DNA of 64,000 nucleotides. Source: an uncultured Alphaproteobacteria bacterium (lineage in GTDB: Bacteria; Pseudomonadota; Alphaproteobacteria; RF32; CAG-239). Position 1 is the stretch's first letter. Each line of letters begins with the position of its first letter. Location of the stretch: the NCBI GenBank assembly GCA_949282205.1, contig CASDOS010000057.1:4037-68036 (forward strand). The letters are read 5' to 3'. Below the pieces are notes generated by a model, which worked only from the letters and a program-made list of their open reading frames with translations, made no database searches and was not told the origin of the DNA. The position numbers and the translations under genes are program-made. Positions 2,213-25,050 of the stretch are shown piece after piece.

Positions 2213-2248
2213 GGCTGCTCCTTTCTTAAGGGAAAAATCCGACGGGGA

Positions 2249-3121
2249 TTATTTTTGCAATAACGCAGCGCGCCAGTTTTCCATTTGATATGTTTTGATG
2301 ACACTAAAGCCAACTCGCTTATGTTGTTTTATAATATCGTTCTCCTGATTGTCAATAAATCCTGAAATTAAGTAACAGCCTCCTTGAGATAAATTTTGAT
2401 ATGCAGCGTTTGCCATTTCTTTTAACGGATTGGCTAAAATGTTGGCAAATATCATATCGTAAGGTGCTGTTGCTTTTATTTTTGGATTGTTGTAGCCGTC
2501 GCTTAAAATCGCTTGCACGCAGTCTTCTACATTGTTGGTAATAGCATTGTTGTTCGTAACATCTACGGCTTCATCATCTATGTCGACAGCCAAAATTTTG
2601 ACGTCTTTGTTCCAGATTTTTGCGGCACATATGGAGAGAATCCCAGAACCCGTTCCCATGTCTAGGATATAATGCGGTTTGGTTGTTGTCTGATGAAGCT
2701 CGGAGATTGCCGTTAAGCACATTTTGGTTGTTTGATGTTCTGAACCAAAAGCCGTTGCCGCATATACTTGTACCGGAATTTTGGCGGTGCTTGGACATAC
2801 TGCCTCATGTATTCCGTATATCATAAATTCTCCGATCTCAAAAGGGGCAAATTTTATGACGTTCTCTTTGAGCCAATTCTTGCTTTCTAAAATTTCTTCT
2901 TGATATGATGGAAGATGCAACGCACGGGTTTGTTTGGCTGTTTCTAGTGTTTGCGCATCAAACTCTAATGGTGCATAGCAAACATATTCTTCTTTGCCGT
3001 CATCGGTATAATTAATGGCAACGACGGCAAAGGTTTCTTCTAAGTATTCGGCTTCCTTTTCCGCTAAGCCTTCTGTCGGTTCAAAACGATATAATTTACA
3101 ACTCTTGCCAATGTTATGCAT
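2249..3121 (-). CDS. prmA: ribosomal protein L11 methyltransferase
   Basis: 290-aa ORF with SAM-binding motif ILDMGTGSGILSI and PrmA-like N-terminal region and length. Confidence 0.8.
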   Translation of the reverse strand: MHNIGKSCKLYRFEPTEGLAEKEAEYLEETFAVVAINYTDDGKEEYVCYAPLEFDAQTLETAKQTRALHLPSYQEEILESKNWLKENVIKFAPFEIGEFMIYGIHEAVCPSTAKIPVQVYAATAFGSEHQTTKMCLTAISELHQTTTKPHYILDMGTGSGILSICAAKIWNKDVKILAVDIDDEAVDVTNNNAITNNVEDCVQAILSDGYNNPKIKATAPYDMIFANILANPLKEMANAAYQNLSQGGCYLISGFIDNQENDIIKQHKRVGFSVIKTYQMENWRAALLQK

Positions 3122-3211
3122 AGGTTTACCTCAAATATTTTTTTTTTGTTTACAACTTTTTTTTCAAGATGCATAAATATAGTGAGGAAAACGTTAAAAA
3201 GAGATTATATT

Positions 3212-3994
3212 ATGAAAAAAATATTTATCGGTTTGGCTGTTTTGGCTGTGGCTTCCTGTTCTTATTATATGAAGGGTGATTATACTCTGGGGAAGCGGAA
3301 TACTTTTAATGACTTCTTTTATACTTATAATATTCGTTATTATGATACCGGTGAGTTTTCTTCTGTTGCGAAAGAAACAGAGACAATCAGTGACTATGAA
3401 GCCGGTGTCGTGCGGCATGCCGTTCCGGGGGGAATTGTTGTTTCTTCCAAAGTTTTGGAAAAGGAAGTTTATTCTGATGAAATCGTAAGACCAAATAAAA
3501 AAGGCGCTTTGGTTTCTTATACCGTGCCGGTTGAGTTTTCAGATGAGAAAGTTTATAGAATTATCGGTGAGGTCGAAATTAATGAGCGTTTTTATCGTCT
3601 GGTGGAACCGAATCGCTATGGTGATATTGTTCTGTTGGATGATAAAGGCAATATTTATCCGCGCGTCGGCAGAATCTTTAATGATAGATTGGCTCTTCTT
3701 GAAACGGCATTTCAGTTGGAGCCGGAAGATGTTCGGTTTATTAATGAACGGACAAGACAAGTTGATGATGATGAACATCTTATCTCCAGTTTTGAAGTGC
3801 GTTATGCCGGTATAGAGGATTATAAAATGGTCTTTAAATATAAAACCGTTCATAATGACAGAGGGGAACCAATTGAAGAAAATAAAACTTTGAAGTTTCC
3901 TATGTACGACAGAAATGTAGCGCTGGGAACTATCCAATTGGAAATTTTAAATGTTGATGATACTGGTATAGAATATAAAATTTTAGCTTTGTAG
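3212..3994 (+). CDS. lipoprotein, function unknown
   Basis: The ORF track starts at 3116, but the internal ATG at 3212 gives MKKIFIGLAVLAVASC, a signal peptide with an LAVASC lipobox. No family recognised. Confidence 0.6.
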   Translation: MKKIFIGLAVLAVASCSYYMKGDYTLGKRNTFNDFFYTYNIRYYDTGEFSSVAKETETISDYEAGVVRHAVPGGIVVSSKVLEKEVYSDEIVRPNKKGALVSYTVPVEFSDEKVYRIIGEVEINERFYRLVEPNRYGDIVLLDDKGNIYPRVGRIFNDRLALLETAFQLEPEDVRFINERTRQVDDDEHLISSFEVRYAGIEDYKMVFKYKTVHNDRGEPIEENKTLKFPMYDRNVALGTIQLEILNVDDTGIEYKILAL

Positions 3995-5136: not shown

Positions 5137-5718
5137 ATGACGGTGGTTGCAATGTGGTGCCGACATAATGGCGATGATATTATCGGAATTGGAAAACATA
5201 TTCCGTGGAATGTGCCGAGCGATGCGGAACATTTTTTAGAGGTGGTTGATGGACAAGTGGTGGTTTGCGGGAGATTGACGTATGAGAGTTTTCCGAATCG
5301 TTCTATTGATGGGTGTAGGATTTTTGTTTTGACTTCAGATGAAAATTATGAAGTTAGTGATGAAAAACATCATTGCATTATTTCTTCGCAGAAAGTTTTG
5401 GCAGATTTGGAGGATGATATTTATGTTGCCGGTGGAGCGACGGTTTATTACTTATTTATGACAGGAAAGGAAAAACTTAAACCACAAATTGTAGTGGATT
5501 GTGTGTATATGGGGGAGATACAGGATTGTGACGGAAAGCCGATTTCTATTACAGATAGTGTGGCGGTTTTGCAAAAAAATTATCGGCGTGTTTCGCCTTT
5601 TTATATTCAAGATAATGTGGAAAGTGCCATCTGGATTAAAAAAGGTGAATTTGTGGAACAAAGTGTCTTGAAGCGTTTGGTTAGTATTTTGGAACAAAAT
5701 GCAGAAATCAGATGGTAA
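5137..5718 (+). CDS. dihydrofolate reductase-like protein with C-terminal extension
   Basis: 193-aa ORF. IGxxxxIPWxxPxDxxxF, GRLTYESFP and VAGGATVY segments line up with the DHFR fold motifs. Its start directly abuts the rnhB stop. Confidence 0.55.
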   Translation: MTVVAMWCRHNGDDIIGIGKHIPWNVPSDAEHFLEVVDGQVVVCGRLTYESFPNRSIDGCRIFVLTSDENYEVSDEKHHCIISSQKVLADLEDDIYVAGGATVYYLFMTGKEKLKPQIVVDCVYMGEIQDCDGKPISITDSVAVLQKNYRRVSPFYIQDNVESAIWIKKGEFVEQSVLKRLVSILEQNAEIRW

Positions 5719-5831: not shown

Positions 5832-6506
5832 ATGAAAAAAATATTTATGTCACCGCTATTTATGCCGATTGTTTTTATGATAGCTTGGCTTGCTTTTATG
5901 GCGGGTGTTTATTTTTTGTATCCGAATGATATTTTAAATATTACCAAAGAGGGGGGAATTATTGAGGATTTTACTCATTTCGGTTATGTTGTTTTAATTG
6001 CCGTGCTAATTATTTGTAGTGATGATTTTAGTGACAGAGTTAAAACTTGGGCAACGCTTTTTTTCTTGACAATGTGCGCTTTTTTGCGTGAGCAAGGGAT
6101 TCAACATCATTTGTCGCAGACCGATACTACTCCTTTTAAATCCAGATTTTTCTTAAATCCGAATAATCCTATCAGCGAAAAGATTATTTTTGGTTTTGTT
6201 CTGATTGTTGTTGCCGGTGCGGTTGTTTATTTGGCGGTTAAATATTCTAAGCACTTAGTACGCTCTTTTTTCCAATTTAATCCGGTTACTTGGTCGATTG
6301 CTGTTTTGTGTACGGTTGGCGTTTGTGCCAAGTTGGTTGATAGATTTCCTTCTAATTGGAGAAAGGCTCATAATGGGGTTCCACTTCCCGAACAAACCTA
6401 TGCAATTTGTCAGTTGTTGGAAGAATCAAGTGAGATGTTCTTACCTTATATTGCAGTTGGGGCGTTGTATCAATTTAAGCTGCAAAAGCAAGGTTGGAAC
6501 GCTTAA
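5832..6506 (+). CDS. integral membrane protein, function unknown
   Basis: 224-aa ORF with about 6 hydrophobic segments. No family recognised. Confidence 0.55.
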   Translation: MKKIFMSPLFMPIVFMIAWLAFMAGVYFLYPNDILNITKEGGIIEDFTHFGYVVLIAVLIICSDDFSDRVKTWATLFFLTMCAFLREQGIQHHLSQTDTTPFKSRFFLNPNNPISEKIIFGFVLIVVAGAVVYLAVKYSKHLVRSFFQFNPVTWSIAVLCTVGVCAKLVDRFPSNWRKAHNGVPLPEQTYAICQLLEESSEMFLPYIAVGALYQFKLQKQGWNA

Positions 6507-6527: not shown

Positions 6528-6563
6528 GAGGATTGAAATGGAGGGTTTCAATCCTCTTTTTTT
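6528..6563 (+). terminator. intrinsic terminator
   Basis: Perfect 11-bp stem gaggattgaaa/tttcaatcctc followed by a T7 run. Confidence 0.75.
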
Positions 6564-6670
6564 GACTAAAATGTAAATTTTGACAAAAAACTTCTTGCGC
6601 GAGGGGGAAAAATGTGGTATGGTAAAGAAGTTTTTAATAAGAATATGTTAAATTTTTAATTTTAATCATT

Positions 6671-7243
6671 ATGGCAAATTTAGCTTTAACGGCTGCACAT
6701 GTTGCGCCGAATGCATTTAGTGGTGTTATTCTTCGTGGTTCTAACTTGTTTGCTGGTAAGGACAGCAAAACGCCGATTATGACCGGTGTTGAAAAAGTTT
6801 CAGTTGGAACCAAGTCCAACAAGATTTCAATGTTGGACGGTCAGGTATATGAGTACACGCCTGATTGGAAGACATTGATTGCCTTTAATGGGCAGAAGGC
6901 TACGCAGATTGGAACGTACCGTATTGCATCTGCAGAAGAAATCGAAATTATTTCAGACTACGACCTTGTGAAAGGGCATGGGCTGAAGGTTATTAACGAA
7001 CAAGGTATGATTCTGCATGAAAACGTGCGGGCATTTATGCCAATAAATGACCGCTTTTACCTCGTTCGTGAGGCTGATGGGGGATGGATGTATTACCATG
7101 CCAGTGGCTCACGAGGAAGAGGGAATGCTTTAATGAAAGCTAACCTTGTCGTTGGCAGAAAGAAATTGCTATTTGATGAAAGAGGTAAACTCCACCTTAA
7201 TCAGTGGTCGCCCTTATATTACGATAATCTATATTTTGATTAA
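6671..7243 (+). CDS. hypothetical protein (ORFan), soluble
   Basis: 190-aa ORF bounded by terminators at 6528-6563 and 7269-7296. No Shine-Dalgarno. No family recognised. Confidence 0.5.
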   Translation: MANLALTAAHVAPNAFSGVILRGSNLFAGKDSKTPIMTGVEKVSVGTKSNKISMLDGQVYEYTPDWKTLIAFNGQKATQIGTYRIASAEEIEIISDYDLVKGHGLKVINEQGMILHENVRAFMPINDRFYLVREADGGWMYYHASGSRGRGNALMKANLVVGRKKLLFDERGKLHLNQWSPLYYDNLYFD

Positions 7244-7268
7244 TCGTAATAACTTTCATCGCTTTTTT

Positions 7269-7296
7269 AGGGGCTGCTTCGGCGGCTCCTTTTTTT
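7269..7296 (+). terminator. intrinsic terminator
   Basis: Hairpin aggggctgc ttcg gcggctcct followed by a T-run. Confidence 0.6.
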
Positions 7297-7321
7297 GTGG
7301 TAAAGAGGGGAAATTTTAAGA

Positions 7322-7350
7322 TTGACAAAAGATATATTAGGAGCTACTTT
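7322..7350 (+). promoter_or_regulatory. sigma70-type promoter of the cassette family
   Basis: TTGACA (7322-7327), 17-nt spacer, TACTTT (7345-7350). The TTGACAAAAG box recurs at 7933 and upstream of the 22.5-26 kb array. Confidence 0.5.
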
Positions 7351-7392
7351 AAGGGTGGTTATTGATTATTATGAACTTTAAATTTAAGAATT

Positions 7393-7800
7393 ATGGAAAA
7401 ATTTTTTAGTAAAATTTGGTGGCCGTACTTATTTATTTTCGGTCAGTTATGTATTGTTGGGCTTGTTGGCTTGGTCTGTGGCATCAATGTGTTTTGGTTG
7501 CCATGGTATAGTCTGGGTGTGGTTATGCTGCTAGGGCTTTTGCTGGTTACTCTGCAATTTCTGGATTTATTTCGGAGTGCATATAAACTTGAGGGGCTTG
7601 CGGTCGTTATGTATTTAGTGGCGTTTTTTTGCGTGTTGAGTGTTATCAGCTTTTGTCTTGCACCATCCGGTGGCATAGCAGGCAATTTTGAACATGTTGG
7701 GGTTCTGTTGATTTCATCTGCAATATGGTGGGGTAGTGCTTTGTTTTTTCTCCCGAAAATGCAAAATACACAAGGTAAAGACTTGAATGTCGCAGTATAG
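7393..7800 (+). CDS. small 4-TM membrane protein, paralog of the N-terminus of the 8019 gene
   Basis: 135-aa ORF with four hydrophobic segments. It shares FSK..WW..GQLCI..LLLGL features with the next gene. Start context is TTATGGAAAA without a Shine-Dalgarno. Confidence 0.55.
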   Translation: MEKFFSKIWWPYLFIFGQLCIVGLVGLVCGINVFWLPWYSLGVVMLLGLLLVTLQFLDLFRSAYKLEGLAVVMYLVAFFCVLSVISFCLAPSGGIAGNFEHVGVLLISSAIWWGSALFFLPKMQNTQGKDLNVAV

Positions 7801-7871
7801 CGGTTGCAACTCGTTTTCTGAAACCGCAATCCGTTTTAAAGCGGTCATAAAATTCAATTAAACTAGGTATA

Positions 7872-7905
7872 AACGCTCCTTTTTTAAGGGGCGTTTTGCT
7901 TTTTT
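7872..7905 (+). terminator. intrinsic terminator (conserved copy 1)
   Basis: aacgctcc/ggggcgtt stem followed by TTTTGCTTTTTT. Nearly the same sequence recurs at 9218-9250. Confidence 0.65.
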
Positions 7906-7932
7906 AAAGATGCCGACAATAAACAAAAAAAC

Positions 7933-7960
7933 TTGACAAAAGTAGTGGAGGTGTTAGGAT
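7933..7960 (+). promoter_or_regulatory. sigma70-type promoter of the cassette family
   Basis: TTGACA (7933-7938), 16-nt spacer, TAGGAT (7955-7960). Followed by the leader ATTATTATGAACTT shared with the 7393 gene. Confidence 0.5.
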
Positions 7961-8018
7961 AACACCAATTAACAATTATTATGAACTTAAAAATGTGTAA
8001 ATTATGTTGTGTAATGGT

Positions 8019-9200
8019 ATGGAAAATAAGCAAGGTTTATTTAGCAAAACATTGTTAAATAAAGCGTGGTGGATGATGATGACAATTGCTATTGTTGGGC
8101 AACTATGTATTATTAGGTATGTTATCTCGCATTATGGGAGTGATACTCTAGTATTTTTGTGGGATGTTTCTCGACTTTTGCTAGGACTTTTTATATTTGG
8201 GTGCTCGGTTGTTATTGTTTCTATAGAAAGTATTGGGGCTTCTATTGTAGTAATGCCCCTTGCTGCATGGCTGTTTTGTGGGCTTTTCGGACCATTACTG
8301 AATAAGTTATCTGTGGCGACATTCAGTAGTGAAGGTGTATTCATCTTTTTGTTTACATCTACCATATGTTGGATTTTGGTTTGGCTTTATTCTAAATTAG
8401 GATTAGAAAAAGTTGATAACAGAAAAAAAGGTAAGGCTGATGTCAGAGTTGTGAAAAGTCGAGTAGCAGAGAGAATGTCAGACATTAAACCTAAATATTT
8501 TACGCAAGAAGAATGTTATTATCAATGTGAAATGTTTGTTAATAGCTTTTGGTTTGATTTTTTTGATAGCTCAGAAAAAGTGTCTGTTCTTTTGTCGAAT
8601 CTGAAGAAAAACTTACAAGGGAGCGGATATCAAAAATGGCGAGAGGATTTTTATGATAAAGTTGAAAAAGATGCTAAAGAGAAAAATCGTCTTCCGCAGG
8701 AACAGCGTGATATCTTGAAAAGTTATCAACGTGCTAAATTTGACCACCTTAAGCAGGAAGAACTTAAGCAACCTGCGTACCGGCGTTTGTGTGAAGCATA
8801 TGAAAAATGTTTCTGGAGTGATTTTCTGAATAGAACAGAAGAAATATCAGTCCTGTTGAAACGCTTTGAAATTGCATTGCAAAACAGTGGTTATCAGAAA
8901 TGGTATGAAGAGTTTTATGATGTTGTTGAAAAGCAGACAAAAGAACGGACTCGTCCGCCAAAAGAGCTGCGTCGAAATAACTTCCAACGAGTAAAGTATG
9001 AAGTTTCCGAGGATATCCGGGTTGATTTTAATGGTTTATCTGTAACACCTGCTCAGTTTCGAATTTTACTTAATGATGCAAAAGCTATATCTTTAGGTGT
9101 GGATGATTTGATTGTTTTTTGTCGTAAATTGGCTGAGAAACGGCCTGAATTTAGAGATTTTTTGCGCGGAAAAATCATTCGTACGGCGGAAATTGCATAG
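8019..9200 (+). CDS. membrane protein with 4-TM N-terminal domain and a tandemly duplicated cytoplasmic domain, function unknown
   Basis: The ORF is open from 8004. I prefer the ATGGAAAAT start at 8019 because the paralog and the array genes also start ATGGAA. The N-terminus is paralogous to the 7393 protein. The C-terminal half contains two repeats of about 70-75 aa each, with starts about 91 aa apart. Confidence 0.55.
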   Translation: MENKQGLFSKTLLNKAWWMMMTIAIVGQLCIIRYVISHYGSDTLVFLWDVSRLLLGLFIFGCSVVIVSIESIGASIVVMPLAAWLFCGLFGPLLNKLSVATFSSEGVFIFLFTSTICWILVWLYSKLGLEKVDNRKKGKADVRVVKSRVAERMSDIKPKYFTQEECYYQCEMFVNSFWFDFFDSSEKVSVLLSNLKKNLQGSGYQKWREDFYDKVEKDAKEKNRLPQEQRDILKSYQRAKFDHLKQEELKQPAYRRLCEAYEKCFWSDFLNRTEEISVLLKRFEIALQNSGYQKWYEEFYDVVEKQTKERTRPPKELRRNNFQRVKYEVSEDIRVDFNGLSVTPAQFRILLNDAKAISLGVDDLIVFCRKLAEKRPEFRDFLRGKIIRTAEIA

Positions 9201-9217
9201 ATTATGATTTTAGTATA

Positions 9218-9250
9218 AACGCCTCTTGAAAAAGGGGCGTTTTGCTTTTT
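9218..9250 (+). terminator. intrinsic terminator (conserved copy 2)
   Basis: aacgcctc/ggggcgtt stem followed by TTTTGCTTTTT. Homologous to 7872-7905. Confidence 0.65.
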
Positions 9251-9347: not shown

Positions 9348-11213
9348 TTATAGCTCCGGTACGGACGCTTTGGTGCGCTTTTCTTCCGGAACAGGTGCGT
9401 CTTTGTTTTTATCTACCACTTTACCGGCTAAGACGTCTTTAATTTCATCTCCGGTTAGGGTTTCATATTCCATTAACGCTTGGGCTAAAGTTTCCCAATC
9501 TTGTTTGTGTTTTTGCAAAATCTTTTTAGCTTCTTCATAACCGTCGGTTACAAGTCTTTTGATTTCCGCATCCACCAAACGTGCCGTATCTTCACTCATA
9601 TTCTGATTTTGAGTTACCGAGCGACCTAAGAAAACTTCATTGGAGTTTTCAGAATAACGAATCGGTCCCAATAAATCACTCATGCCCCATTCGGTTACCA
9701 TTGCTCGCGCCAAATTTGTCGCCGCATTGATATCCGATGACGCGCCTGATGTTACCGCATCATAGCCGAATTTTAATTCTTCAGCGACACGGCCTCCCAT
9801 CAATATCGCTAATCGGGATAGCATTTGGGCTCGCGTATATGAGTATTTATCCTTTTCCGGCAATTGCTGTACCATACCCAAAGCACGACCTCTCGGAATA
9901 ATTGTCGCTTTGTGTATCGGGTCGGTGTCTTTGACATTTAATGAGCAAATCGCATGACCGGCTTCGTGATAAGCTGTTAATTGCTTTTCTTTCTCATCCA
10001 TGGCCATAGATTTACGCTCATTACCCATCAGTACTTTATCTTTTGCAGCATCAAAGTCTGCCGAACTTACTTTCAACTTGTTTTTGCGAGCTGCCAATAG
10101 AGCCGCTTCATTGACTAAGTTGGCGAGATCCGCTCCCGAAAAACCAGGTGTGCCGCGTGCAACTATGCTTAAGTTGACATCTTTGGCCAAAGGTACTTTG
10201 CGTGTATGTACTTTCAATATTTCTTCACGTCCTTTAACGTCCGGATTGTTTACCGTTACCTGACGGTCAAAACGTCCTGGGCGGAGTAGGGCAGGGTCTA
10301 ATACGTCCGGACGGTTGGTCGCCGCGATGATAATTACATTTTCGTTGGCTTCAAAACCATCCATTTCTACCAATAATTGGTTTAAGGTTTGTTCGCGTTC
10401 ATCGTTGCCGCCGCCTAAACCCGCGCCACGATGACGACCGACTGCGTCAATCTCATCAATGAACAGCAAGCATGGTGCGTTCTTTTTGGCTTGTGCAAAC
10501 ATATCTCTTACACGCGAAGCTCCAACGCCCACAAACATCTCTACAAAGTCCGAACCCGAAATCGAAAAGAATGGAACGTTTGCTTCTCCAGCCACAGCTT
10601 TGGCTAATAAAGTTTTACCTGTTCCCGGAGGTCCGACCAATAATACACCTCTCGGAATTTTGCCGCCTAAACGTTGGAATTTTTGCGGGTCTTTCAAAAA
10701 GTCAATAATCTCTTCTAACTCTTGTTTGCTCTCATCGGCTCCGGCAACATCCGCAAAGGTGACTTTTTTGGTATTCTCTATCAGTCTTGCTCTGGATTTG
10801 CCGAAACTCATTGCCTTATTATTGCCGGAATTGGCTTGACGCATGAAGAATATCCATACACCAATTAGCAATAACATTGGAAACCATGATATGACTATTC
10901 CCCAGAAAGTACTTTCGGATGTGTCTATCGGGCGGGCTTCTATTTTTACGCCATACTTGCGTAAGGTTTCAACCATACTCGGATCGAACGGGGCGTAAGT
11001 TCTGAATTTACTGCCGTTGTTGTAATTGCCGTAGATGTCATTGCCTACGATGGTTACGGACTCTATTTGGCTGTTTTCGGCTTTATCCATAAATTCCGAA
11101 AAGGCTATCGGTGTGGTGGCATTTTGACGTGCGGTGGGGGTGAAATTATTCATTATCACACTCAGCAGTATAAAAGCCACCAACCAAAATATCATGCTTT
11201 TCATCGGTTTCAT
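9348..11213 (-). CDS. ftsH: ATP-dependent zinc metalloprotease FtsH
   Basis: 621-aa ORF. N-terminal TM segments, Walker [19 protein letters not shown], the AAA second region of homology, and the zinc site HEAGHA. Confidence 0.95.
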
Positions 11214-11748: not shown

Positions 11749-12681
11749 TTATGCATGACGGAGTTTGAATACTCCGTCTTCGTAGCCTTGTATGCTTTTA
11801 TCGCTTTGTGCCATTTCCAATCTTTTTTCCGCCAATGCCACATACTCTTTTTCTCGCTCAATGCCTACATATCGACGCCCTAATTTGGCGGCAGTTACCG
11901 ATGTCGTGCCTGAACCTAAAAACGGATCAAAAACAACTTCCCCTTCGTTGCTCGAGGCTAAAATCAATTTGGCAATCAATTTTTCCGGCTTTTGGGTAGG
12001 GTGCGGTGTGTTTTCTGACATTGACCAAAACGGAATGGATATGTCGGTCCATAAATTTGATGGGGCTGTCAGGCGATATTTCTTTCCTTCTTCCTCATCG
12101 TCTTCCTGCCAGTCTTTCGGAATCCCGTTATCATCTTTGTACGGCGCTAAAACCGGGCGTTTTAATTTAACCGCATCTAAATTAAAGGTGTATTCACTTG
12201 ATTTAGTAAAAAACCAGATGTCTTCAATGCAGTTCTTCCAATTGTTGCCCGAACTGCGACCTTTTTCGCGTTCCCATGTTATTCTGTTTTTTAGTAGGAA
12301 ATATTTGCCGGCAATTTCCGGTATGGCTATGGATGTGTTCCAATCTGAGCAAATGTACAAACTGCCGTTCGGTTTTAAAGATATAAAAACTTCCGCAAGC
12401 CATTTATCCATCCATCGCTTGTAGTCGTTCCAATCCATCGATTTGAATTCTTTGGTGCCGAATTTTTTGGTTAGGTTATATGGGGGATCGACAACAACCA
12501 AATCCGCAAAATTTGCCGGTAAAAATTTTAGGGCTTCAAATGTATCTTGCCAGATGGTGCGGTTTAAAATTTCACTGACTTTTGCTTTTTTAGTCAGTGT
12601 TATCGCTTTTGATGAATATTCATCGACTTTTTCTGGGCTTAGTACAATGGTTTTGTTGCGGGGAGCCGGTGTCGATGTCAT
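11749..12681 (-). CDS. beta-class DNA methyltransferase (N6-adenine or N4-cytosine), orphan
   Basis: 310-aa ORF. The catalytic DPPYN motif comes before the SAM motif FDPFLGSGTT (beta-class order), and HPTQKP is present. It lacks the C-terminal extension of about 80 aa found in canonical CcrM. No restriction endonuclease gene is adjacent. Confidence 0.8.
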   Translation of the reverse strand: MTSTPAPRNKTIVLSPEKVDEYSSKAITLTKKAKVSEILNRTIWQDTFEALKFLPANFADLVVVDPPYNLTKKFGTKEFKSMDWNDYKRWMDKWLAEVFISLKPNGSLYICSDWNTSIAIPEIAGKYFLLKNRITWEREKGRSSGNNWKNCIEDIWFFTKSSEYTFNLDAVKLKRPVLAPYKDDNGIPKDWQEDDEEEGKKYRLTAPSNLWTDISIPFWSMSENTPHPTQKPEKLIAKLILASSNEGEVVFDPFLGSGTTSVTAAKLGRRYVGIEREKEYVALAEKRLEMAQSDKSIQGYEDGVFKLRHA

Positions 12682-12956
12682 TGATTTTCGCCAAACTTGT
12701 TATTTACGAGCTCGGTTAAATTGCTTATTGCTTGGGCGGCATCTTCACCGCTGGCACTTACTTTTATGGTTGTGCCTTTGACCGCGGCTAACATCATTAA
12801 ACCCATGATGGAATTCCCTTCTACCGTTTGACCAAGTCTTTCGACTTCTACTTCCGCGTTTAGTCCATCTATCGCTTTAACGAAACTGGCTGCGGCTCTG
12901 GCGTGTAATCCTCTTTCGTTTATTATATTTAATTCTACGCAGATTTTATCGCTCAT
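12678..12956 (-). CDS. ptsH: phosphocarrier protein HPr (NPr-type)
   Basis: 92-aa ORF. The GLHARAAA motif carries the active-site His, and the fold length is HPr-like. Its TGA stop overlaps the methyltransferase ATG (ATGA). Confidence 0.85.
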   Translation of the reverse strand: MSDKICVELNIINERGLHARAAASFVKAIDGLNAEVEVERLGQTVEGNSIMGLMMLAAVKGTTIKVSASGEDAAQAISNLTELVNNKFGENQ

Positions 12957-12958
12957 CT

Positions 12959-13357
12959 TTATTTTCCCAGTAATTCAGAGGCTATGGTGATATATTTAAT
13001 GCCGGCTTCTTTCGCTCCGCTTACCGCTTCTTTTAAGCCTTTTTCTTTACGCAGTGTATTCAGTTTTACCAACATTGGCAGATTGATACCCGCAATCACT
13101 TCCACTTTGGCTCTGTCCATTATTGATATCGCTAAATTTGACGGTGTGCCGCCGAACATGTCGGTCAATACGATAACTCCATCTCCGCTGTCTACGTTTT
13201 GTACTTTATTCAATATATCGTTGCGACGCTCGTTCATGTCGTCGTTGGGACCGATGCATGCGGTTTCTATTTGTTCCTGCGGACCGACGATGTGTTGCAT
13301 CGCAGATTTGAATTCTTCGGCCAGGCGACCGTGTGTGACCAACACTATTCCTATCAT
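12959..13357 (-). CDS. PTS EIIA component, mannose/fructose family
   Basis: 132-aa ORF. MIGIVLVTHGRLAEEF carries the phospho-His, and DMFGGTPSN is typical of EIIA-Man. Confidence 0.8.
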   Translation of the reverse strand: MIGIVLVTHGRLAEEFKSAMQHIVGPQEQIETACIGPNDDMNERRNDILNKVQNVDSGDGVIVLTDMFGGTPSNLAISIMDRAKVEVIAGINLPMLVKLNTLRKEKGLKEAVSGAKEAGIKYITIASELLGK

Positions 13358-13774
13358 TTATTTTGCTCCATTTTTCCAGATTTTAACCGCACCGAAAGCC
13401 TCAATGATTTCTTGTTTGCTCTTGATGCGTTCTAATTCATCGGCTCGGGTTTGACGACCTTTAAACGAAAATTCTTCTACGGTGTCTACGGGGACGGCAT
13501 AAGTGCGTTCTACCGTTTCTCCGTTTATCTCTACAATCATGACAAATTCCGACTCGGCTAATACGGAACCCGTTTCTCCGTTTATTCCTTCCAATTTTAC
13601 CGCAATTTTGCCATCCCTCTTTAGTAATGCGGTATTCTTACCGTCATATTCTAACATCGGGTTAATCGGACTGTCCTTGCGGGCATCGATGAATATGGCT
13701 AATTCCCCGAATTTGTTTTCTATGATTTCAAAAAAATCTTGTTTCTCTATTAATGTGTAATATTGATTTTCCAT
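13358..13774 (-). CDS. hypothetical protein, first gene of the EIIA-HPr-methyltransferase operon
   Basis: 138-aa ORF. Its stop abuts the EIIA start (TAAATG). It has no Walker A motif, so it is not an HprK. No family recognised. Confidence 0.55.
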   Translation of the reverse strand: MENQYYTLIEKQDFFEIIENKFGELAIFIDARKDSPINPMLEYDGKNTALLKRDGKIAVKLEGINGETGSVLAESEFVMIVEINGETVERTYAVPVDTVEEFSFKGRQTRADELERIKSKQEIIEAFGAVKIWKNGAK

Positions 13775-13812
13775 GTTTCGGCTCTTGTCTAATTAATGTT
13801 ACCAACGTTATC

Positions 13813-13841
13813 AAAATATCACAAACTTTTATAAGTGTCAA
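13813..13841 (-). promoter_or_regulatory. sigma70-type promoter for the 138aa-EIIA-HPr-MTase operon
   Basis: Read on the minus strand: TTGACA (13836-13841), 17-nt spacer, TATTTT (13813-13818), about 40 nt upstream of the 13774 start. Confidence 0.5.
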
Positions 13842-13857
13842 TTAAGTTTATTCTGAC

Positions 13858-14649: not shown

Positions 14650-14679
14650 TGCTTTTCTCCTTTGTGTGTACTTGCTTGA

Positions 14680-22372: not shown

Positions 22373-22401
22373 TTTTTTGCTACATCGGGAGATTGTCTTT
22401 A

Positions 22402-22430
22402 GCGGTGTCATTTGTTGACGCCGCTTTTTT
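22402..22430 (+). terminator. intrinsic terminator of grpE
   Basis: gcggtgtca tttgt tgacgccgc followed by T6. Confidence 0.7.
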
Positions 22431-22445: not shown

Positions 22446-22473
22446 TTGACAAAAAAGCAAAGCGTGCTATTTT
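22446..22473 (+). promoter_or_regulatory. cassette promoter of array member 1
   Basis: TTGACA (22446-22451), 16-nt spacer, TATTTT (22468-22473). Preceded by the conserved GTGTGTTTTAAAATA. Confidence 0.55.
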
Positions 22474-22506
22474 TTTTTCAGAAAGAAATTATTATAACTA
22501 AAATTT

Positions 22507-23262
22507 ATGACTATGGGAAATTATGAAAAACAAATTGCTGATTTATGTCATAAAATGATGACAGAGCAGTTTTTAGATTATTTGAATCAATGTGGATGCG
22601 AACTCGGTTATCCGTTTGTTATGTATTCAGACGGTGAATGCGGAAAAGGACTGGTTTCTTCGGATGGTAAACACAATGCCGTATTGAAAGTCTTGGGCTC
22701 GTTTAAAGATAATGCTAAAGTTGACGGAATTAAGAAACAGAGAATAAAGGAGAATTCAGTTTCGCTTTCTTCTGTTGATGAGCAAAGATTAAAAAATATT
22801 TTGAGTATTATTCAAGAAGGTAAACATAAACTTCTTTCTGCTGATGATGAATGTTTTTTAATTTTGAAGGGGACTTTTAGACTGTTTATTTTGTATCTTA
22901 ATGAGGTGTGCGCACTTAGCTTCTCGGCTTTTAAAATTATTATCGACGAGGATAAATTAGTTTATTTTGCAGCTTATATTGGAATGGTTACAGAACTTAG
23001 AGATGACGAAGTAGATTATATTTTAGATAAGGCATCTAAGGAAATTATGATGATTATGTTTGTTTCTTCTTCTTTTTTAGGTTTTTCCGAAGAACAAGAA
23101 AAAAAACTTGTTGATAGTCATCGACTGGATTTGCTGACTGTGTATGACGGTGCGTATGTATTCGAAAAAAAAACGTGGTCCTATTTGAGAAATTTAGCGC
23201 AAACAGATCCAGAACTTAAAAAATGGCTTGATGATAGATTGCCATATGATAAAAAGCTATAA
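22507..23262 (+). CDS. array member 1 of a novel paralog family (FLxYLNxCG-GYPF-NGECGK module)
   Basis: 251-aa ORF. The N-terminal module is QFLDYLNQCGCELGYPFVMYSDGECGKGLVSSDGKHNAVLKVLGSFKDNAKV. The C-terminal region is homologous to members 2 and 5. No signal peptide or TM segment. Confidence 0.65.
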   Translation: MTMGNYEKQIADLCHKMMTEQFLDYLNQCGCELGYPFVMYSDGECGKGLVSSDGKHNAVLKVLGSFKDNAKVDGIKKQRIKENSVSLSSVDEQRLKNILSIIQEGKHKLLSADDECFLILKGTFRLFILYLNEVCALSFSAFKIIIDEDKLVYFAAYIGMVTELRDDEVDYILDKASKEIMMIMFVSSSFLGFSEEQEKKLVDSHRLDLLTVYDGAYVFEKKTWSYLRNLAQTDPELKKWLDDRLPYDKKL

Positions 23263-23294
23263 TCCTGATAGAGTTTGTTTATTTGATTTTATCA

Positions 23295-23323
23295 GCAGGG
23301 TTCTTCGGAACTCTGCTTTTTTT
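23295..23323 (+). terminator. intrinsic terminator (conserved copy)
   Basis: gcagggttc ttcg gaactctgc followed by T7. An identical hairpin lies at 24169-24197. Confidence 0.75.
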
Positions 23324-23338
23324 GTGCGTTTTAAAATG

Positions 23339-23366
23339 TTGACAAAAATGTATACTGTGCTAATTT
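23339..23366 (+). promoter_or_regulatory. cassette promoter of array member 2
   Basis: TTGACA (23339-23344), 16-nt spacer, TAATTT (23361-23366). Confidence 0.55.
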
Positions 23367-23406
23367 TCTCTCAGAAAGAAATTATTGTAACTAAAATTTA
23401 TGGCTT

Positions 23407-24123
23407 ATGGAAAATTATGATGCAAATGTATCCGTTGCGACGGGGCAATTTTTGAATTATTTAAATGTATGTGGACGAAAACTTGGTTATCCTTTTCTGC
23501 TGTATTCTAACGGAGAATGCGGGAAAAAACTGGTTTCTTCTGATAGTAAGCACAATGCTGTGGCAAAGGTTTTTATGTCTTGCGGTGTTACGGAGATGTT
23601 GCAAACATCTGCGATTTCGGCTGTTGAACATGATACCATTGAGGCATCTGGCGGCGAAGATTTTTTGAGATACTTAAACAAATGTGCGCCAAATATAGGC
23701 TTTCCGTTTGTCATTTTGACTGATGGCAGAATTTTGAAAAGTTCATTTTTAACAAATGAAGAGAAAAAAATGGTTGTTGTTAAAGTTTTGCGCGCTTTTG
23801 TAAACGATGCCAAATTGCTTGGTGTTGTAGAGGATGTTTCTTTGAAAGAGAAATGTGAAAAATCTGATACCGATGAGGCTTTTTTAGAACTTAAAGCGAT
23901 TATCGATGATGATGATTTGGAGCGTTTTGAAAAGTTGAGCAACGTTAATCATCAGATGAAGATGTATATTTTAACTAATGCATCTAGAAAGATATTGATG
24001 TTCTTTTTGCGCCATTGTAAACCTAATAGCTTGACTCTGGAAGAGATGGATTTGCTGTGGATTAAAAACGATTTGGAGCTTTTGGATGCCTATTACTGGT
24101 GGGTTCGTGTTCCTGGTAAATAA
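23407..24123 (+). CDS. array member 2 of the novel paralog family (two N-terminal modules)
   Basis: 238-aa ORF. The first module (nt 23446-23574) is about 90% identical to member 3. A second, diverged copy of the module lies at nt 23662-23814 (FLRYLNKCAPNIGFPFVILTDG...VVKVLRAFVNDAK). Confidence 0.65.
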   Translation: MENYDANVSVATGQFLNYLNVCGRKLGYPFLLYSNGECGKKLVSSDSKHNAVAKVFMSCGVTEMLQTSAISAVEHDTIEASGGEDFLRYLNKCAPNIGFPFVILTDGRILKSSFLTNEEKKMVVVKVLRAFVNDAKLLGVVEDVSLKEKCEKSDTDEAFLELKAIIDDDDLERFEKLSNVNHQMKMYILTNASRKILMFFLRHCKPNSLTLEEMDLLWIKNDLELLDAYYWWVRVPGK

Positions 24124-24168
24124 ACGCTATTTTTAGGGCAGATGCAAATTTTATTTTAATGATTATCG

Positions 24169-24197
24169 GCAGGGTTCTTCGGAACTCTGCTTTTTTT
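24169..24197 (+). terminator. intrinsic terminator (conserved copy)
   Basis: gcagggttc ttcg gaactctgc followed by T7. Confidence 0.75.
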
Positions 24198-24212
24198 GTG
24201 TGTTTTAAAATG

Positions 24213-24240
24213 TTGACAAAAAAACAAAGCGTGCTAATTT
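24213..24240 (+). promoter_or_regulatory. cassette promoter of array member 3
   Basis: TTGACA (24213-24218), 16-nt spacer, TAATTT (24235-24240). Confidence 0.55.
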
Positions 24241-24280
24241 TCTCTCAGAAAGAAATTATTGTAACTAAAATTTATGGCTT

Positions 24281-24925
24281 ATGGAAAATTATGATGCAAA
24301 TGTATCCGTTGCGACGGGGCAATTTTTGAATTATTTAAATGTATGTGGACGAAAACTTGGCTATCCGTTTATGCTGTATTCTAACGGAGAATGCGGGAAA
24401 AAACTGGTTTCTTCTGACGGTAAGCACAATGCGGTTGCGAAGGTTTTACACCCGTTTCAGCTTGACTGTGGTATTGAAATGCCTCTCAACTCCGAGCTGC
24501 CTTTTGGAATGGCTTTTGATATTCCAACCGATGAAGACGAAAGAAAGTTATGCGATATCTATAATCGTATTTTACGAAAAGAAACGCTTTCGGAGCAGCA
24601 AGAGTCTCTGTTGTGTCGCTTCGGTACGGGCGATGCCATCAGTCAATACGACTATGCCGGCGAGTTGTGTCTTTCTGCTTTTACAGAGCTTGTTAAACGT
24701 GATGATTTTCTGTTGTTTAATACGGCTTATTTGTGTAATACTTCGTTGAGAGGTTTTTGGACAGAGTATCAGGAGAATTCTTTGTATGAAATTAAAGAAG
24801 TTTATTTGGCTCGAAATGCGTCTAAAAACTTCGTGTTTAATTATCTGAGAACCGGAAGTCGGATGTCGTTTACACCAAAATTTAAAGAAGAAGTGCAAAA
24901 ACGAAAACGTACATTTTTTTGCTAA
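24281..24925 (+). CDS. array member 3 of the novel paralog family, 3'-truncated at the inverted-repeat boundary
   Basis: 214-aa ORF. Homologous to member 4 up to ...EEVQKRKR (member 4 has ...IELVKRRD). The last codons (TFFC, stop) read into the repeat at 24909 onward. About 45 C-terminal residues are missing relative to member 4. Confidence 0.6.
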   Translation: MENYDANVSVATGQFLNYLNVCGRKLGYPFMLYSNGECGKKLVSSDGKHNAVAKVLHPFQLDCGIEMPLNSELPFGMAFDIPTDEDERKLCDIYNRILRKETLSEQQESLLCRFGTGDAISQYDYAGELCLSAFTELVKRDDFLLFNTAYLCNTSLRGFWTEYQENSLYEIKEVYLARNASKNFVFNYLRTGSRMSFTPKFKEEVQKRKRTFFC

Positions 24926-24983
24926 AATAAAGTCACATAATTTCTCAACAAAAAAGTATTGACTATTGTGGCAAAAAAATGTA
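24909..24983. repeat. inverted repeat, right copy (75 nt core)
   Basis: The reverse complement matches 18953-19028. It contains a TTGACT box facing member 4. Confidence 0.9.
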
Positions 24984-25050
24984 CGGATTTGCATGGCGAC
25001 GATGTTGATTTTTATTTTGATTTTGGTTTCTAATTTAAAATTTGTAATTT

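What the first reader, a model, noticed from the sequence alone, without database searches (positions are those of the whole stretch)
7322..8021. The same promoter-leader cassette without a Shine-Dalgarno precedes unrelated coding sequences at two loci
Seen: upstream of the membrane-protein genes at 7393 and 8019 lies TTGACAAAAG, then about 16-17 nt, a -10-like hexamer, and the leader ATTATTATGAACTT(T)AAA..TTATGGAA. The same leader aligns base-for-base with the array leaders at 22486-22515, 23381-23412, 24255-24286 and 25872-25900 (ATTATT(A/G)TAACTAAAATTTATGGCTTATGGAA). Yet the encoded proteins (4-TM proteins versus soluble array proteins) show no similarity. None of these genes has a GGAG/AGGA/GAGG element 5-13 nt before its ATG. 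Backbone genes in the same window almost all do (for example 4109 GGAGG, 20368 AAGGAGG, 27791 AAGGAG, 32242 AGGAGA). Five of the seven cassette genes begin ATGGAA; member 1 begins ATGACTATGGGA and member 4 ATGAAT. The terminators are also conserved in pairs (7872-7905 with 9218-9250, and 23295-23323 with 24169-24197). Inference: a portable regulatory module is shared by the accessory genes. This suggests a common regulator and a non-canonical translation-initiation mode, for example A/U-rich S1-dependent initiation or control by an RNA-binding protein at the GGA that overlaps the start.
Basis: seen in the sequence. Interest (0 to 1): 0.7.

Follow-up and report, generated by a model that had tools for sequence, protein, structure and literature searches.

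The report
Shared SD-less promoter-leader cassette for orphan genes
A fixed control module (strong promoter plus an A/U-rich leader with a conserved box and no ribosome-binding Shine-Dalgarno site) precedes many unrelated, fast-evolving genes of unknown function in this bacterium and its uncultured gut relatives, but never their housekeeping genes, which suggests a separate way of expressing accessory genes.

Summary
Six window genes (starts 7393, 8004/8019, 22513, 23407, 24281, 25896) share one skeleton. It runs: own terminator, TTGACAAAA (-35), 16-17 nt, TAnnnT (often with TG), about 14 nt, ATTATT(0-3 nt)[A/C]ACTWWAAWTT, then TTATG 17-20 nt after the ACT box. None has a Shine-Dalgarno site, whereas most backbone genes do.

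The same skeleton, with the same spacings, occurs in related uncultured gut/rumen MAGs labelled Alphaproteobacteria. Their housekeeping proteins are only about 45-49% identical to the window's. There it precedes about 36 mutually unrelated protein clusters, and none of those scanned (10 window ORFs, 24 external proteins) has a Pfam match. It never precedes an annotated housekeeping gene (0/41 versus 13/28, p=1e-6).

A profile built only from foreign copies finds exactly the six window sites. The leader is 16% G+C, weakly folded, and has no conserved structure, upstream ORF or Rfam match. The paired terminators are explained by segmental duplication.

Most likely this is an autonomous sigma-70 expression cassette whose linear A/U-rich box drives Shine-Dalgarno-independent initiation, much like the T7 epsilon enhancer or S1-dependent leaders. 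The mechanism is inferred, not shown. The idea of a regulator binding GGA at the start codon is not supported.

The parts
6528..6556 (+). intrinsic terminator that ends the preceding gene (5832-6506)
   Evidence: 12-bp stem plus T run
6580..6588 (+). TTGACAAAA box upstream of gene 6671. This is a variant cassette: no clear -10 at 16-18 nt, and the leader TGTTAAATTTTTAATTTTAATCATTATG lacks the ATTATT..ACT box
   Evidence: not hit by the cassette profile
6671..7243 (+). 190-aa orphan gene with no Shine-Dalgarno site
7269..7290 (+). intrinsic terminator of gene 6671
7322..7350 (+). promoter of gene 7393: -35 TTGACA (7322-7327), 17-nt spacer, weak -10 TACTTT (7345-7350)
7365..7392 (+). leader box ATTATTATGAACTTTAAATTTAA followed by ..TT before the ATG. 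The ACT box lies 19 nt before the start
   Evidence: profile hit 7321-7397, E=0.003
7393..7800 (+). 135-aa protein with 4 transmembrane segments; no match in any family library
7871..7896 (+). intrinsic terminator of 7393; part of the direct repeat 7867-7904 / 9213-9250
7933..7960 (+). promoter of the second membrane gene: TTGACA, 16-nt spacer, TG-extended TAGGAT
   Evidence: 10 of 12 matches, TG present
7975..8003 (+). leader box ATTATTATGAACTTAAAAAT ... TTATG
   Evidence: E=0.05
8004..9200 (+). 398-aa protein (393 aa if it starts at 8019): transmembrane N-terminus plus a duplicated soluble module. Relatives carry a C-terminal J domain that this copy lacks
9217..9242 (+). intrinsic terminator; second copy of the repeat
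22401..22425 (+). intrinsic terminator after grpE
22446..22473 (+). promoter of array gene 1: TTGACA, 16-nt spacer, TG-extended TATTTT
22488..22512 (+). leader box ATTATTATAACTAAAATTTAT..
   Evidence: E=0.002
22513..23262 (+). array gene 1 (249 aa from ATGGGA; the longest ORF starts at 22507)
   Evidence: dN/dS 0.34 against the L006 orthologue
23289..23573 (+). duplicated segment (94% identical to 24163-24447). It holds the terminator 23294-23317, promoter 23339-23366, leader box 23381-23401 and the first 55 codons of array gene 2
   Evidence: (E=1e-4)
23407..24123 (+). array gene 2 (238 aa)
24163..24447 (+). second copy of the duplicated segment: terminator 24168-24191, promoter 24213-24240, leader box 24255-24275, and the start of array gene 3
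   Evidence: (E=1e-3)
24281..24925 (+). array gene 3 (214 aa)
24959..25050 (+). degenerate cassette of array gene 4: TTGACT, poor -10, leader of about 60 nt that keeps only TAATTTAAAATTTGTAATTTATG
   Evidence: no profile hit
25051..25767 (+). array gene 4 (238 aa)
25828..25895 (+). cassette of array gene 5: TTGACAAAA, weak -10, leader box ATTATTCACTTAAATTTAT (25872-25890), then TTATG
   Evidence: (E=5e-4)
25896..26438 (+). array gene 5, split by an in-frame TAA at 26103-26105 into 69-aa and 102-aa ORFs
   Evidence: the alignment shows P0005 reading through where this copy stops

Best explanation
Each of these genes is an autonomous expression unit with four parts in a fixed order:
- an intrinsic terminator that insulates it from the gene upstream;
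- a near-consensus sigma-70 promoter (TTGACAAAA, 16-17 nt, often TG-extended TAnnnT);
- a 5' leader of about 37-42 nt that is almost pure A/U and has no Shine-Dalgarno site;
- the start codon in the context TTATG.

The leader carries a conserved linear box, ATTATT(0-3 nt)[A/C]ACTWWAAWTT, whose ACT core lies 17-20 nt before the AUG.

The proposed mechanism is as follows. The 30S subunit is recruited to this unstructured A/U-rich leader without mRNA-rRNA Shine-Dalgarno pairing, most likely through ribosomal protein S1 or a standby-type binding. The box acts as a position-dependent enhancer, in the way proposed for the T7 gene 10 epsilon element and other A/U-rich enhancers.

The skeleton is kept by selection, not merely inherited. 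It survives across genera in front of unrelated genes, while the bases between the blocks are free to change. Within a species the whole intergenic module (terminator to ATG) is copied along with gene 5' ends by duplication and recombination. This builds fast-turnover arrays of orphan genes next to housekeeping genes.

Shown: the anatomy, its specificity for orphan genes, its conservation, the lack of a Shine-Dalgarno site, the lack of structure, and that the ORFs are under purifying selection.

Inferred: the position of the transcription start, the role of S1, and that the box acts at the RNA level.
For: Anatomy and significance in the window:
- Sequence, motif counts and terminators.
- A profile HMM built from 29 cassettes of other organisms finds exactly six window sites (E from 1e-4 to 0.05). 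It finds nothing else on either strand except a 20-nt fragment at 55775 with E=5.3.

No Shine-Dalgarno site:
- None of 35 cassette genes reaches -5 kcal/mol at the cassette ATG. Among 214 other ORFs of the same contigs, 50-65% do (p=1.5e-7).

Leader composition and folding:
- The leader is 16% G+C against 35% for Shine-Dalgarno-led genes.
- The median folding energy of -40..+30 is -4.2 against -9.0 kcal/mol (p=1.5e-11).
- RNAalifold predicts no conserved pairs in 16 leaders, and Rfam finds nothing.

Geometry:
- The -35 start to the ACT box is 48-53 nt (mode 50). The box to the ATG is mostly 17-19 nt. TT at -2 and -1 is conserved.
- In the metagenome scan the pattern did not include an ATG. Even so, 29 of 36 hits followed by an ORF have the ATG 23-27 nt after ATTATT.
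- In the three copies where the promoter-to-box distance is 2-6 nt longer than usual (L024, L038, L282 at 6427), the box-to-ATG distance stays at 19 nt. This favours anchoring to the start codon.

Breadth:
- The 56 unique cassette ORFs collected fall into 41 BLAST clusters; after removing the likely chance hits outside the lineage, 39 ORFs in about 36 clusters remain.
- All 24 external proteins tested lack a Pfam match. The ten island ORFs of the window scanned, eight of them cassette-associated, have no significant match in Pfam, PHROGs, PADLOC or NCBIfam.
- Contigs that carry the cassette include relatives whose backbone proteins are 44-49% identical to the window's.

Test not biased by the DNA pattern:
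- Homologues of one foreign cassette family at 92, 73 and 66% identity all keep the cassette, and so do neighbouring genes without Pfam matches.
- In the same loci dnaK, dnaJ, an outer-membrane protein gene and others have Shine-Dalgarno sites.
- The cassette precedes 0 of 41 Pfam-positive genes and 13 of 28 Pfam-negative genes (p=1e-6).

The ORFs are real genes: dN/dS is 0.18-0.38 in four of the five cassette-gene pairs for which it could be computed; the fifth, a nearly identical pair (dS 0.04), gave 0.94.

Literature:
- The T7 g10 enhancer is the A/U-rich UUAACUUUA(A). Its proposed pairing with 16S rRNA was not supported, and S1 has been proposed instead (PMC8748333, PMC9590205).
- Weak structure around the start is the common feature of genes without Shine-Dalgarno sites (PMC5397173).
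Against: No transcription start site, ribosome profiling or reporter data exist for these organisms, so the leader length and the level at which the box acts are inferred.

A generic S1 or accessibility mechanism does not by itself explain why a specific sequence with a C at a fixed place (ACT) is kept, rather than any A/U-rich run.

The box is spaced about as tightly from the promoter as from the ATG. That would equally suit a DNA-level operator in the early transcribed region.

In Agrobacterium the T7 enhancer was not needed for strong expression when a Shine-Dalgarno site was present (PMC8748333).

The window leaders contain upstream AUGs. Bacteroidetes, which naturally lack Shine-Dalgarno sequences, deplete AUGs near their starts (PMC6847099).

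Most foreign copies were found with patterns derived from the window, so the forced positions cannot count as independent evidence.
Confidence: 0.5

Rival explanations
1. The box is a DNA operator. A lineage-specific DNA-binding regulator (a repressor, or a silencer of foreign or AT-rich genes) binds at about +8 to +22 of the transcribed region and co-regulates the whole set of orphan genes. The missing Shine-Dalgarno site is then a side effect of AT-rich leaders.
For: The distance from the -35 to the box is tight (48-53 nt, mode 50), as expected for a site that must sit against RNA polymerase. The core TTAACTTAA of the commonest foreign variant is a 4-1-4 palindrome, read directly from the sequences. 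The motif is restricted to one functional class of genes, which looks like a regulon.
Against: The conserved core is asymmetric ([A/C]ACTWWAA). The window copies (GTAACTAAAA, TGAACTTTAA, TTCACTTAAA) break the palindrome. When the promoter-to-box distance grows by 2-6 nt, the box-to-ATG distance stays at 19 nt. By my own reading, the box resembles no known alphaproteobacterial site (CtrA TTAA-N7-TTAAC, LexA, Fur/Irr, IHF). No regulator gene is linked to the islands (gene lists).
Confidence: 0.2
2. The box is the target of a dedicated trans-acting RNA factor (an RNA-binding protein or a small RNA) that switches translation or stability of all cassette mRNAs together.
For: The motif is linear, strand-specific and unstructured, lies at a fixed distance from the AUG, and is confined to one gene class.
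Against: No complementary small RNA and no candidate protein were found in the window. The GGA expected for CsrA-type control is present in only 6 of 20 foreign cassettes whose start codon was unconstrained. No Rfam family matches.
Confidence: 0.13
3. The specific sequence has no function of its own. The similarity reflects common descent of the intergenic modules, spread by duplication and gene conversion, plus the general A/T richness of leaders without Shine-Dalgarno sites.
For: Within the species, whole intergenic modules are near-identical because of recent duplication (285 nt at 94%; type-1 modules in L277-L279). One array gene differs from its L006 counterpart by dS 0.04, while the flanking genes differ by about 0.7, which shows active exchange. 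The leader-only pattern also hits hundreds of AT-rich Bacteroidota leaders by composition alone.
Against: Between genera whose housekeeping proteins are only 44-49% identical, only the motif blocks are conserved, while the spacers are randomised. The A/T-rich box is also kept on a contig of 51% G+C (L183). Neutral non-coding DNA would not survive this divergence in front of about 36 unrelated gene clusters.
Confidence: 0.12
4. The -10-like hexamer inside the box (TAAAAT / TTAAAT, 9-12 nt before the ATG) is the real promoter element, and the mRNAs are leaderless or nearly so. That would explain the missing Shine-Dalgarno site.
For: The consensus scan lists TTCAGA-16-TAAAAT ending at 22504, 8 nt before ATG 22513. 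Leaderless mRNAs are common in Alphaproteobacteria (PMC8459731, abstract listed).
Against: No conserved -35 or TG accompanies this hexamer across the family. By contrast, the upstream TTGACAAAA and TG-extended -10 are the most conserved part of the cassette and sit at canonical spacing.
Confidence: 0.05

Closest known systems
Phage T7 gene 10 'epsilon' (Enh) translational enhancer and other A/U-rich, S1-dependent enhancers
   Same: Both are short linear A/U-rich elements about 20 nt upstream of the AUG. Foreign cassettes (L168, L218, L219, L284) contain ATTATTAACTTTAAT, which includes the exact UUAACUUUAA. The window copies match it at 7-9 of 10 positions (UGAACUUUAA, UUCACUUAAA, GUAACUAAAA). 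Neither element needs secondary structure.
   Different: Epsilon augments a Shine-Dalgarno site, whereas no such site is present here. The 16S region once proposed to pair with epsilon is absent from alphaproteobacterial rRNA, and that pairing model was not supported (PMC8748333). Here the element is welded to a promoter at a fixed distance and marks one class of chromosomal genes.
Leadered translation initiation without a Shine-Dalgarno site (Bacteroidetes; Caulobacter and other Alphaproteobacteria)
   Same: There is no Shine-Dalgarno site, the initiation region is weakly structured and A/U-rich, and start-codon accessibility is the likely determinant.
   Different: In those organisms the mode applies genome-wide or to a large share of genes and has no long conserved box. 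Here the backbone genes use Shine-Dalgarno sites and only orphan genes carry the box. The Bacteroidetes signature (A at -3, depletion of nearby AUGs; PMC6847099) is not seen: position -3 is variable and -2/-1 are TT.
Phage 'morons' (autonomous promoter-ORF-terminator units)
   Same: Single-gene units with their own promoter and terminator, inserted between unrelated genes, lower in G+C than their surroundings, and of unknown function.
   Different: There is no prophage context and no PHROG match. Only one convincing copy turned up in 2.9 million viral contigs. The units sit between chromosomal housekeeping genes and share a common leader.
Integron gene-cassette arrays
   Same: Tandem arrays of unrelated small genes that vary between strains and have conserved sequence at the cassette boundaries.
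   Different: Integron cassettes lack promoters, end in attC sites and depend on an adjacent integrase. Here every gene has its own promoter and terminator, and no integrase lies nearby.

Membership tests
sigma-70-type promoter | -35 hexamer close to TTGACA | tested here: met
   Exact TTGACA upstream of seven island genes; TTGACAAAA is enriched 8 against 2.2 expected.
sigma-70-type promoter | -10 hexamer TAnnnT at 16-18 nt, optionally with TG | tested here: met
   TG-extended TATTTT, TAATTT and TAGGAT at 16 nt. Weak for 7393 (TACTTT) and 25896.
sigma-70-type promoter | transcripts start about 7 nt after the -10 | not testable with these tools
   No RNA data are available.
intrinsic terminator | G+C-rich hairpin followed by a T run at the gene end | tested here: met
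   10 and 8 sites against about 2 expected, one after each island gene.
Shine-Dalgarno-led initiation region | anti-SD-complementary purine run 5-13 nt before the start | tested here: not met
   Duplex energy -1.5 to +1.9 kcal/mol at all cassette starts; 0 of 35 reach -5.
T7 epsilon / A/U-rich enhancer | sequence UUAACUUUA(A) | tested here: inconclusive
   Exact in several foreign cassettes; 7-9 of 10 positions in the window copies (PMC9590205).
T7 epsilon / A/U-rich enhancer | acts together with a downstream Shine-Dalgarno site | tested here: not met
   No Shine-Dalgarno site is present.
T7 epsilon / A/U-rich enhancer | raises translation; depends on S1 | not testable with these tools
   Needs reporter assays and toeprinting.
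leaderless mRNA | transcription starts at the start codon | tested here: inconclusive
   The conserved promoter geometry puts the start about 37-42 nt upstream. Only a weak internal promoter match exists, and there are no RNA data.
CsrA/RsmA-controlled leader | GGA motifs in the leader and at the ribosome-binding site | tested here: not met
   There is at most one GGA, at the start codon. It is present in only 6 of 20 foreign cassettes whose start codon was unconstrained.
leader-peptide / upstream-ORF control | conserved short ORF in the leader | tested here: not met
   Upstream ATGs occur in the window copies. They are lost in the L006 orthologue (ATA) and absent from most foreign leaders.
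structured cis-regulatory RNA (riboswitch, thermometer) | conserved secondary structure or an Rfam match | tested here: not met
   No Rfam hits; no consensus pairs in 16 leaders; weak folding energy.
integron cassette array | attC sites plus an adjacent integrase; cassettes without promoters | tested here: not met
   The neighbouring genes are housekeeping, and each gene has its own promoter.
phage moron | autonomous promoter-ORF-terminator unit | tested here: met
phage moron | located inside a prophage or phage genome | tested here: not met
   No PHROG hits. The flanking genes are grpE, lptF, folA and ftsH. Only one convincing copy in the viral collection.
mobile intergenic repeat (MITE or Correia-like) | full-length sequence identity between copies, with terminal inverted repeats | tested here: not met
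   Between the two window loci, and between genera, only the motif blocks are conserved and the spacers differ.

The most novel reading that the evidence does not exclude
The ATTATT..ACTWWAAWTT box is a dedicated cis-signal. Either it serves a lineage-specific translation-initiation route that bypasses Shine-Dalgarno pairing, or it is read by a single trans-acting factor. Either way, uncultured gut Alphaproteobacteria would express or silence their whole complement of fast-evolving orphan genes as one separately controlled set, distinct from the Shine-Dalgarno-led housekeeping genes.
Probability: 0.2. Interest if true: 0.85.

Novelty: new variant of a known kind. Interest (0 to 1): 0.62.

Why it matters
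If the box is functional, it is a sequence tag that separates the accessory genes of unknown function from the core genome in a poorly known group of gut bacteria. It also works as a practical annotation tool. It fixes start codons (for example 22513 and 8004 here) and shows that these orphan ORFs are real, expressed units.

It offers a natural test case for how a bacterium that normally uses Shine-Dalgarno sites initiates efficiently without one, and why a specific sequence rather than plain A/U richness is kept.

It is also a compact, self-contained expression module (terminator, strong promoter, leader) that could be used to engineer these uncultured lineages.

The within-species copying of the module with gene 5' ends, and the near-identity of one array gene between strains whose flanks have diverged, suggest a recombination-driven way of shuffling accessory genes.

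Tried and rejected
**Ideas tested and dropped**
- Upstream ORFs overlapping the start (MAYGKL*, MFYGSK*, MNFKFKNYGKIF*). They are not conserved in L006 or in foreign cassettes.
- Leaderless transcripts from the internal TAAAAT. No conserved -35 or TG accompanies it.
- CsrA-type GGA control. GGA is present in a minority of copies.
- Structured RNA. No Rfam hit and no conserved pairs.
- Phage origin. No PHROG hit. The viral-contig scan gave 27 hits, of which only L272 (identical to L203) is a convincing cassette.
- Defence system. No PADLOC hit.
- Integron or mobile-repeat models (see the membership table).

**Searches that gave little**
- Function of the array proteins. AlphaFold2 on a 16-sequence alignment gave mean pLDDT 62: a helical C-terminal half at 80-89 and an N-terminal domain below 40. 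Foldseek against the PDB returned nothing better than E=2.5.
- Regulon in the organism's own genome. Total counts are therefore unknown.
- I suspected that the 206-aa gene between dnaK and dnaJ in L284 is a homologue of window gene 6671. The leaders are alike, but the protein match is weak (E=0.002 over 36 residues).
- A shared helical-repeat motif among cassette proteins was found in only a few families.

**Taxonomy.** The assignment of the window to Alphaproteobacteria rests on gene content (a CcrM-like methylase and an HPr/EIIA-Man cluster) and on the submitters' labels of cassette-bearing MAGs. No marker phylogeny was done.


Full report
**1. What is in the window**

Two islands of orphan genes lie among housekeeping genes.
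- Island 1 (6560-9250) lies between folA (5137-5718, plus the orphan 5832-6506) and ftsH (9348-11213, minus strand).
- Island 2 (22400-26500) lies between grpE (21782-22372) and lptF/lptD (26683 onward).

Reading the upstream regions and aligning them gives one skeleton for six genes:
- an intrinsic terminator;
- 15-35 nt;
- TTGACAAAA;
- 16-17 nt, often ending in TGn;
- TAnnnT;
- about 14 nt;
- ATTATT, then 0-3 nt, then [A/C]ACTWWAAWTT;
- a T-rich stretch;
- TTATG.

TTGACAAAA is enriched (8 copies against 2.2 expected), and seven copies sit upstream of island genes. Terminator-like sites are four to five times more frequent than in shuffled sequence, with one after each gene.

No island gene has a Shine-Dalgarno site (duplex energy -1.5 to +1.9 kcal/mol). 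Most backbone ORFs score -5 to -11.

- The two leader types align only with a short indel.
- Array gene 1 probably starts at ATGGGA (22513), because the upstream ATG is ATA in a related strain.
- The second membrane gene fits the family rule (TTATG, about 19-20 nt after the box) at 8004 better than at 8019.
- Gene 25051 has only a degenerate copy.
- Gene 6671 is a further Shine-Dalgarno-less unit with a TTGACAAAA promoter and a variant leader.

**2. The paired terminators**

23289-23573 and 24163-24447 are 94% identical over 285 nt. The segment spans the terminator, promoter, leader and the first 55 codons. 7867-7904 and 9213-9250 are 84% identical.

The array proteins are paralogues along their whole length. 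The two membrane proteins share an N-terminal motif.

The terminator pairs are thus edges of duplicated segments. They are not an independent signal.

**3. Is the shared cassette more than local paralogy?**

The proteins are orphans. The array family has only 8 clusters among 5.8 billion proteins. Pfam, PHROGs, PADLOC and NCBIfam give no significant match for any island protein.

Exact copies occur only in one series of ENA/Logan metagenome assemblies, with 'ncbi' also listed among the sources.

A related strain (L006) has the same grpE-lptF site filled with four genes. All four carry the cassette. One of them lacks the family's N-terminal domain yet keeps the leader and the first codons.

*Collection scans.* A scan of the genome collection with a leader-only pattern was swamped by A/T-rich Bacteroidota leaders. 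Even so, about a dozen hits lay in gut and rumen MAGs labelled Alphaproteobacteria. Several of these had TTGAC(A/T) at the same 36-38 nt upstream, although no promoter was part of the pattern. L123 holds three cassettes in a row.

A metagenome scan with a promoter-plus-box pattern contained no ATG requirement. It gave 36 hits followed by an ORF of at least 60 codons, and in 29 of these the ATG lies 23-27 nt after ATTATT.

*Pooled set.* The 56 unique cassette ORFs collected fall into 41 BLAST clusters. After the likely chance hits outside the lineage are removed, 39 ORFs in about 36 clusters remain. They include many small membrane proteins and helical soluble proteins. All 24 that were tested lack a Pfam match.

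*Relatedness.* Some of these contigs are syntenic with the window at 44-49% protein identity: L175 with window 41-3994, and L132, L154 and L221 with folA. The skeleton has therefore survived divergence at genus level or deeper, while the spacers between the blocks were randomised. One homologue of the window's array family keeps the A/T-rich leader on a contig of 51% G+C (L183).

**4. Independent checks**

- A profile HMM was built only from 29 foreign cassettes. It finds the six window sites (E from 1e-4 to 0.05). It finds nothing else in 128 kb of both strands apart from a 20-nt fragment at the chance TTGACAAAA at 55776.
- To avoid the bias of pattern searches, I searched by protein for homologues of a foreign cassette family and fetched their contigs.
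  - Orthologues at 92, 73 and 66% identity all have the cassette.
  - So do neighbouring genes without Pfam matches (404/408 aa, 296 aa, 231 aa).
  - In the same loci dnaK, dnaJ, an outer-membrane protein gene and the DUF2207 gene have ordinary Shine-Dalgarno sites.
- Over five loci with gene and Pfam tables, the cassette precedes 0 of 41 Pfam-positive genes and 13 of 28 Pfam-negative genes (p=1e-6). In the protein-derived loci alone, leaving out the query gene, the counts are 0 of 22 against 4 of 12 (p=0.01).
- Protein homologues of the window's second membrane gene all carry the same 'type 1' intergenic module (L277-L279, from the same metagenome series).

**5. Properties that bear on mechanism**

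- Cassette genes lack Shine-Dalgarno sites: 0 of 35 against 50-65% of 214 other ORFs (p=1.5e-7).
- Their leaders are 16% G+C. The -40..+30 region folds at a median of -4.2 kcal/mol, against -9.0 for Shine-Dalgarno-led genes (p=1.5e-11).
- There is no conserved pairing and no Rfam match.
- Distances are tight on both sides of the box: 48-53 nt from the -35 and mostly 17-19 nt to the ATG. TT at -2/-1 is conserved.
- In the three copies with a longer promoter-to-box distance, the box-to-ATG distance stays at 19 nt. This is mild evidence for anchoring to the start codon.
- The conserved core is asymmetric (ACT).
- The ORFs are under purifying selection but evolve fast: dN/dS is 0.18-0.38 in four of the five pairs where it could be computed (the fifth, a nearly identical pair, gave 0.94), against 0.03-0.10 for grpE and lptF.
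- Array gene 2 differs from its L006 counterpart by dS 0.04, while the flanking genes differ by about 0.7. This indicates recent exchange.

**6. Interpretation**

The best-supported reading is an autonomous sigma-70 expression unit. Its unstructured A/U-rich leader recruits the 30S subunit without Shine-Dalgarno pairing, and the box acts as a position-dependent enhancer.

The nearest described element is the T7 gene 10 epsilon enhancer, UUAACUUUA(A). Several foreign cassettes contain that exact decamer, and the window copies match 7-9 of its 10 positions.

This is a resemblance in how the element may work. It is not membership of that family:
- Epsilon acts together with a Shine-Dalgarno site.
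- The proposed 16S pairing was not supported, and the pairing region is absent from alphaproteobacterial rRNA.
- The enhancer was dispensable in Agrobacterium (PMC8748333; PMC9590205).

Leadered initiation without a Shine-Dalgarno site, governed by accessibility, is documented in Caulobacter, across prokaryotes (PMC5397173) and in Bacteroidetes (PMC6847099). None of these shows a long conserved box confined to one gene class.

Four rivals remain open: a DNA operator in the early transcribed region, a dedicated RNA-binding factor, neutral inheritance of the sequence, and an internal promoter giving leaderless transcripts. I weight them lower, for the reasons given in their entries.

**7. Novelty and verdict**

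The components are known kinds: a sigma-70 promoter, an intrinsic terminator and an A/U-rich leader without a Shine-Dalgarno site.

The new element is their fusion into one stereotyped cassette with a specific box. It is conserved across genera of uncultured gut Alphaproteobacteria and reserved for orphan accessory genes. I found no description of it in the literature searches I ran.

I rate it a new variant of a known kind, with interest 0.62. The anatomy and specificity are solid. The mechanism is inferred.

Noticed in passing
window 8004-9200; L277-L279: Relatives of the second membrane protein (P0029-P0032; 43-61% identity over the shared region) end in a DnaJ-type J domain with the HPD motif. 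The window copy stops just before that domain (…GKIIRTAEIA*) and instead carries two tandem copies of the middle module (…FW.DF…SVLL…LQ.SGYQKW.E.FYD.VEK…).
   Followed up: partly
window 21782-26500 and 9348-11213; L284 8653-15186: Cassette islands sit next to chaperone or heat-shock genes. In the window they are next to grpE and ftsH. In L284 they lie on both sides of dnaK and between dnaK and dnaJ. Some cassette proteins carry J domains. This may be chance or a shared insertion hot spot. dnaK itself has a different promoter (CTTGCAT, 16 nt, CCTATATA), which I read as RpoH-like, and a Shine-Dalgarno site.
   Followed up: no
window 23407-24123 vs L006 10898-11611: Array gene 2 is almost identical between two strains (dS 0.04, dN/dS 0.94), while the flanking grpE and lptF differ by dS of about 0.7. 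This points to recent recombination or transfer of this unit.
   Followed up: partly
window 25896-26438: Array gene 5 is cut by an in-frame TAA (26103-26105). Another strain's protein (P0005) reads through at this point. The downstream piece (26130-26438) has a chance AGGAG 11 nt before its ATG, so it may be translated separately.
   Followed up: partly
window 6580-6670; L284 13230-13296: Gene 6671 has a variant leader (TGTTAAATTTTTAATTTTAATCATTATGGCAAA). It recurs almost unchanged in front of the 206-aa gene between dnaK and dnaJ in L284, yet the two proteins match only weakly (E=0.002).
   Followed up: partly
L123 (CAVKTH010000068.1) and L156: A contig deposited in a bin labelled Bacteroidaceae carries Shine-Dalgarno-led genes, TTGACA promoters and three cassettes in a row. 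These are near-identical to those of another metagenome contig (L156). The contig is probably mis-binned.
   Followed up: no
window 11749-16302 (minus strand): A CcrM-like adenine methyltransferase gene is followed by HPr, EIIA-Man, two unannotated ORFs and a PAS sensor kinase. This arrangement is typical of Alphaproteobacteria and is the main in-window clue to the organism's identity.
   Followed up: partly
L010-L129 (genome collection hits): The leader-only pattern matches more than a hundred Bacteroidota sites, most directly in front of long ORFs. Leaders without Shine-Dalgarno sites in that phylum often read ATTATTAACTTAAA…ATGAAA. I did not test whether this is composition alone or a shared initiation preference.
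   Followed up: no
L272 (IMGVR_UViG_3300045988_080720) 10458-10530: One convincing cassette (identical to the one in L203, in front of a 90-aa ORF) lies on a predicted viral contig of 57 kb and 38% G+C. It is the only such case in the viral collection.
   Followed up: no
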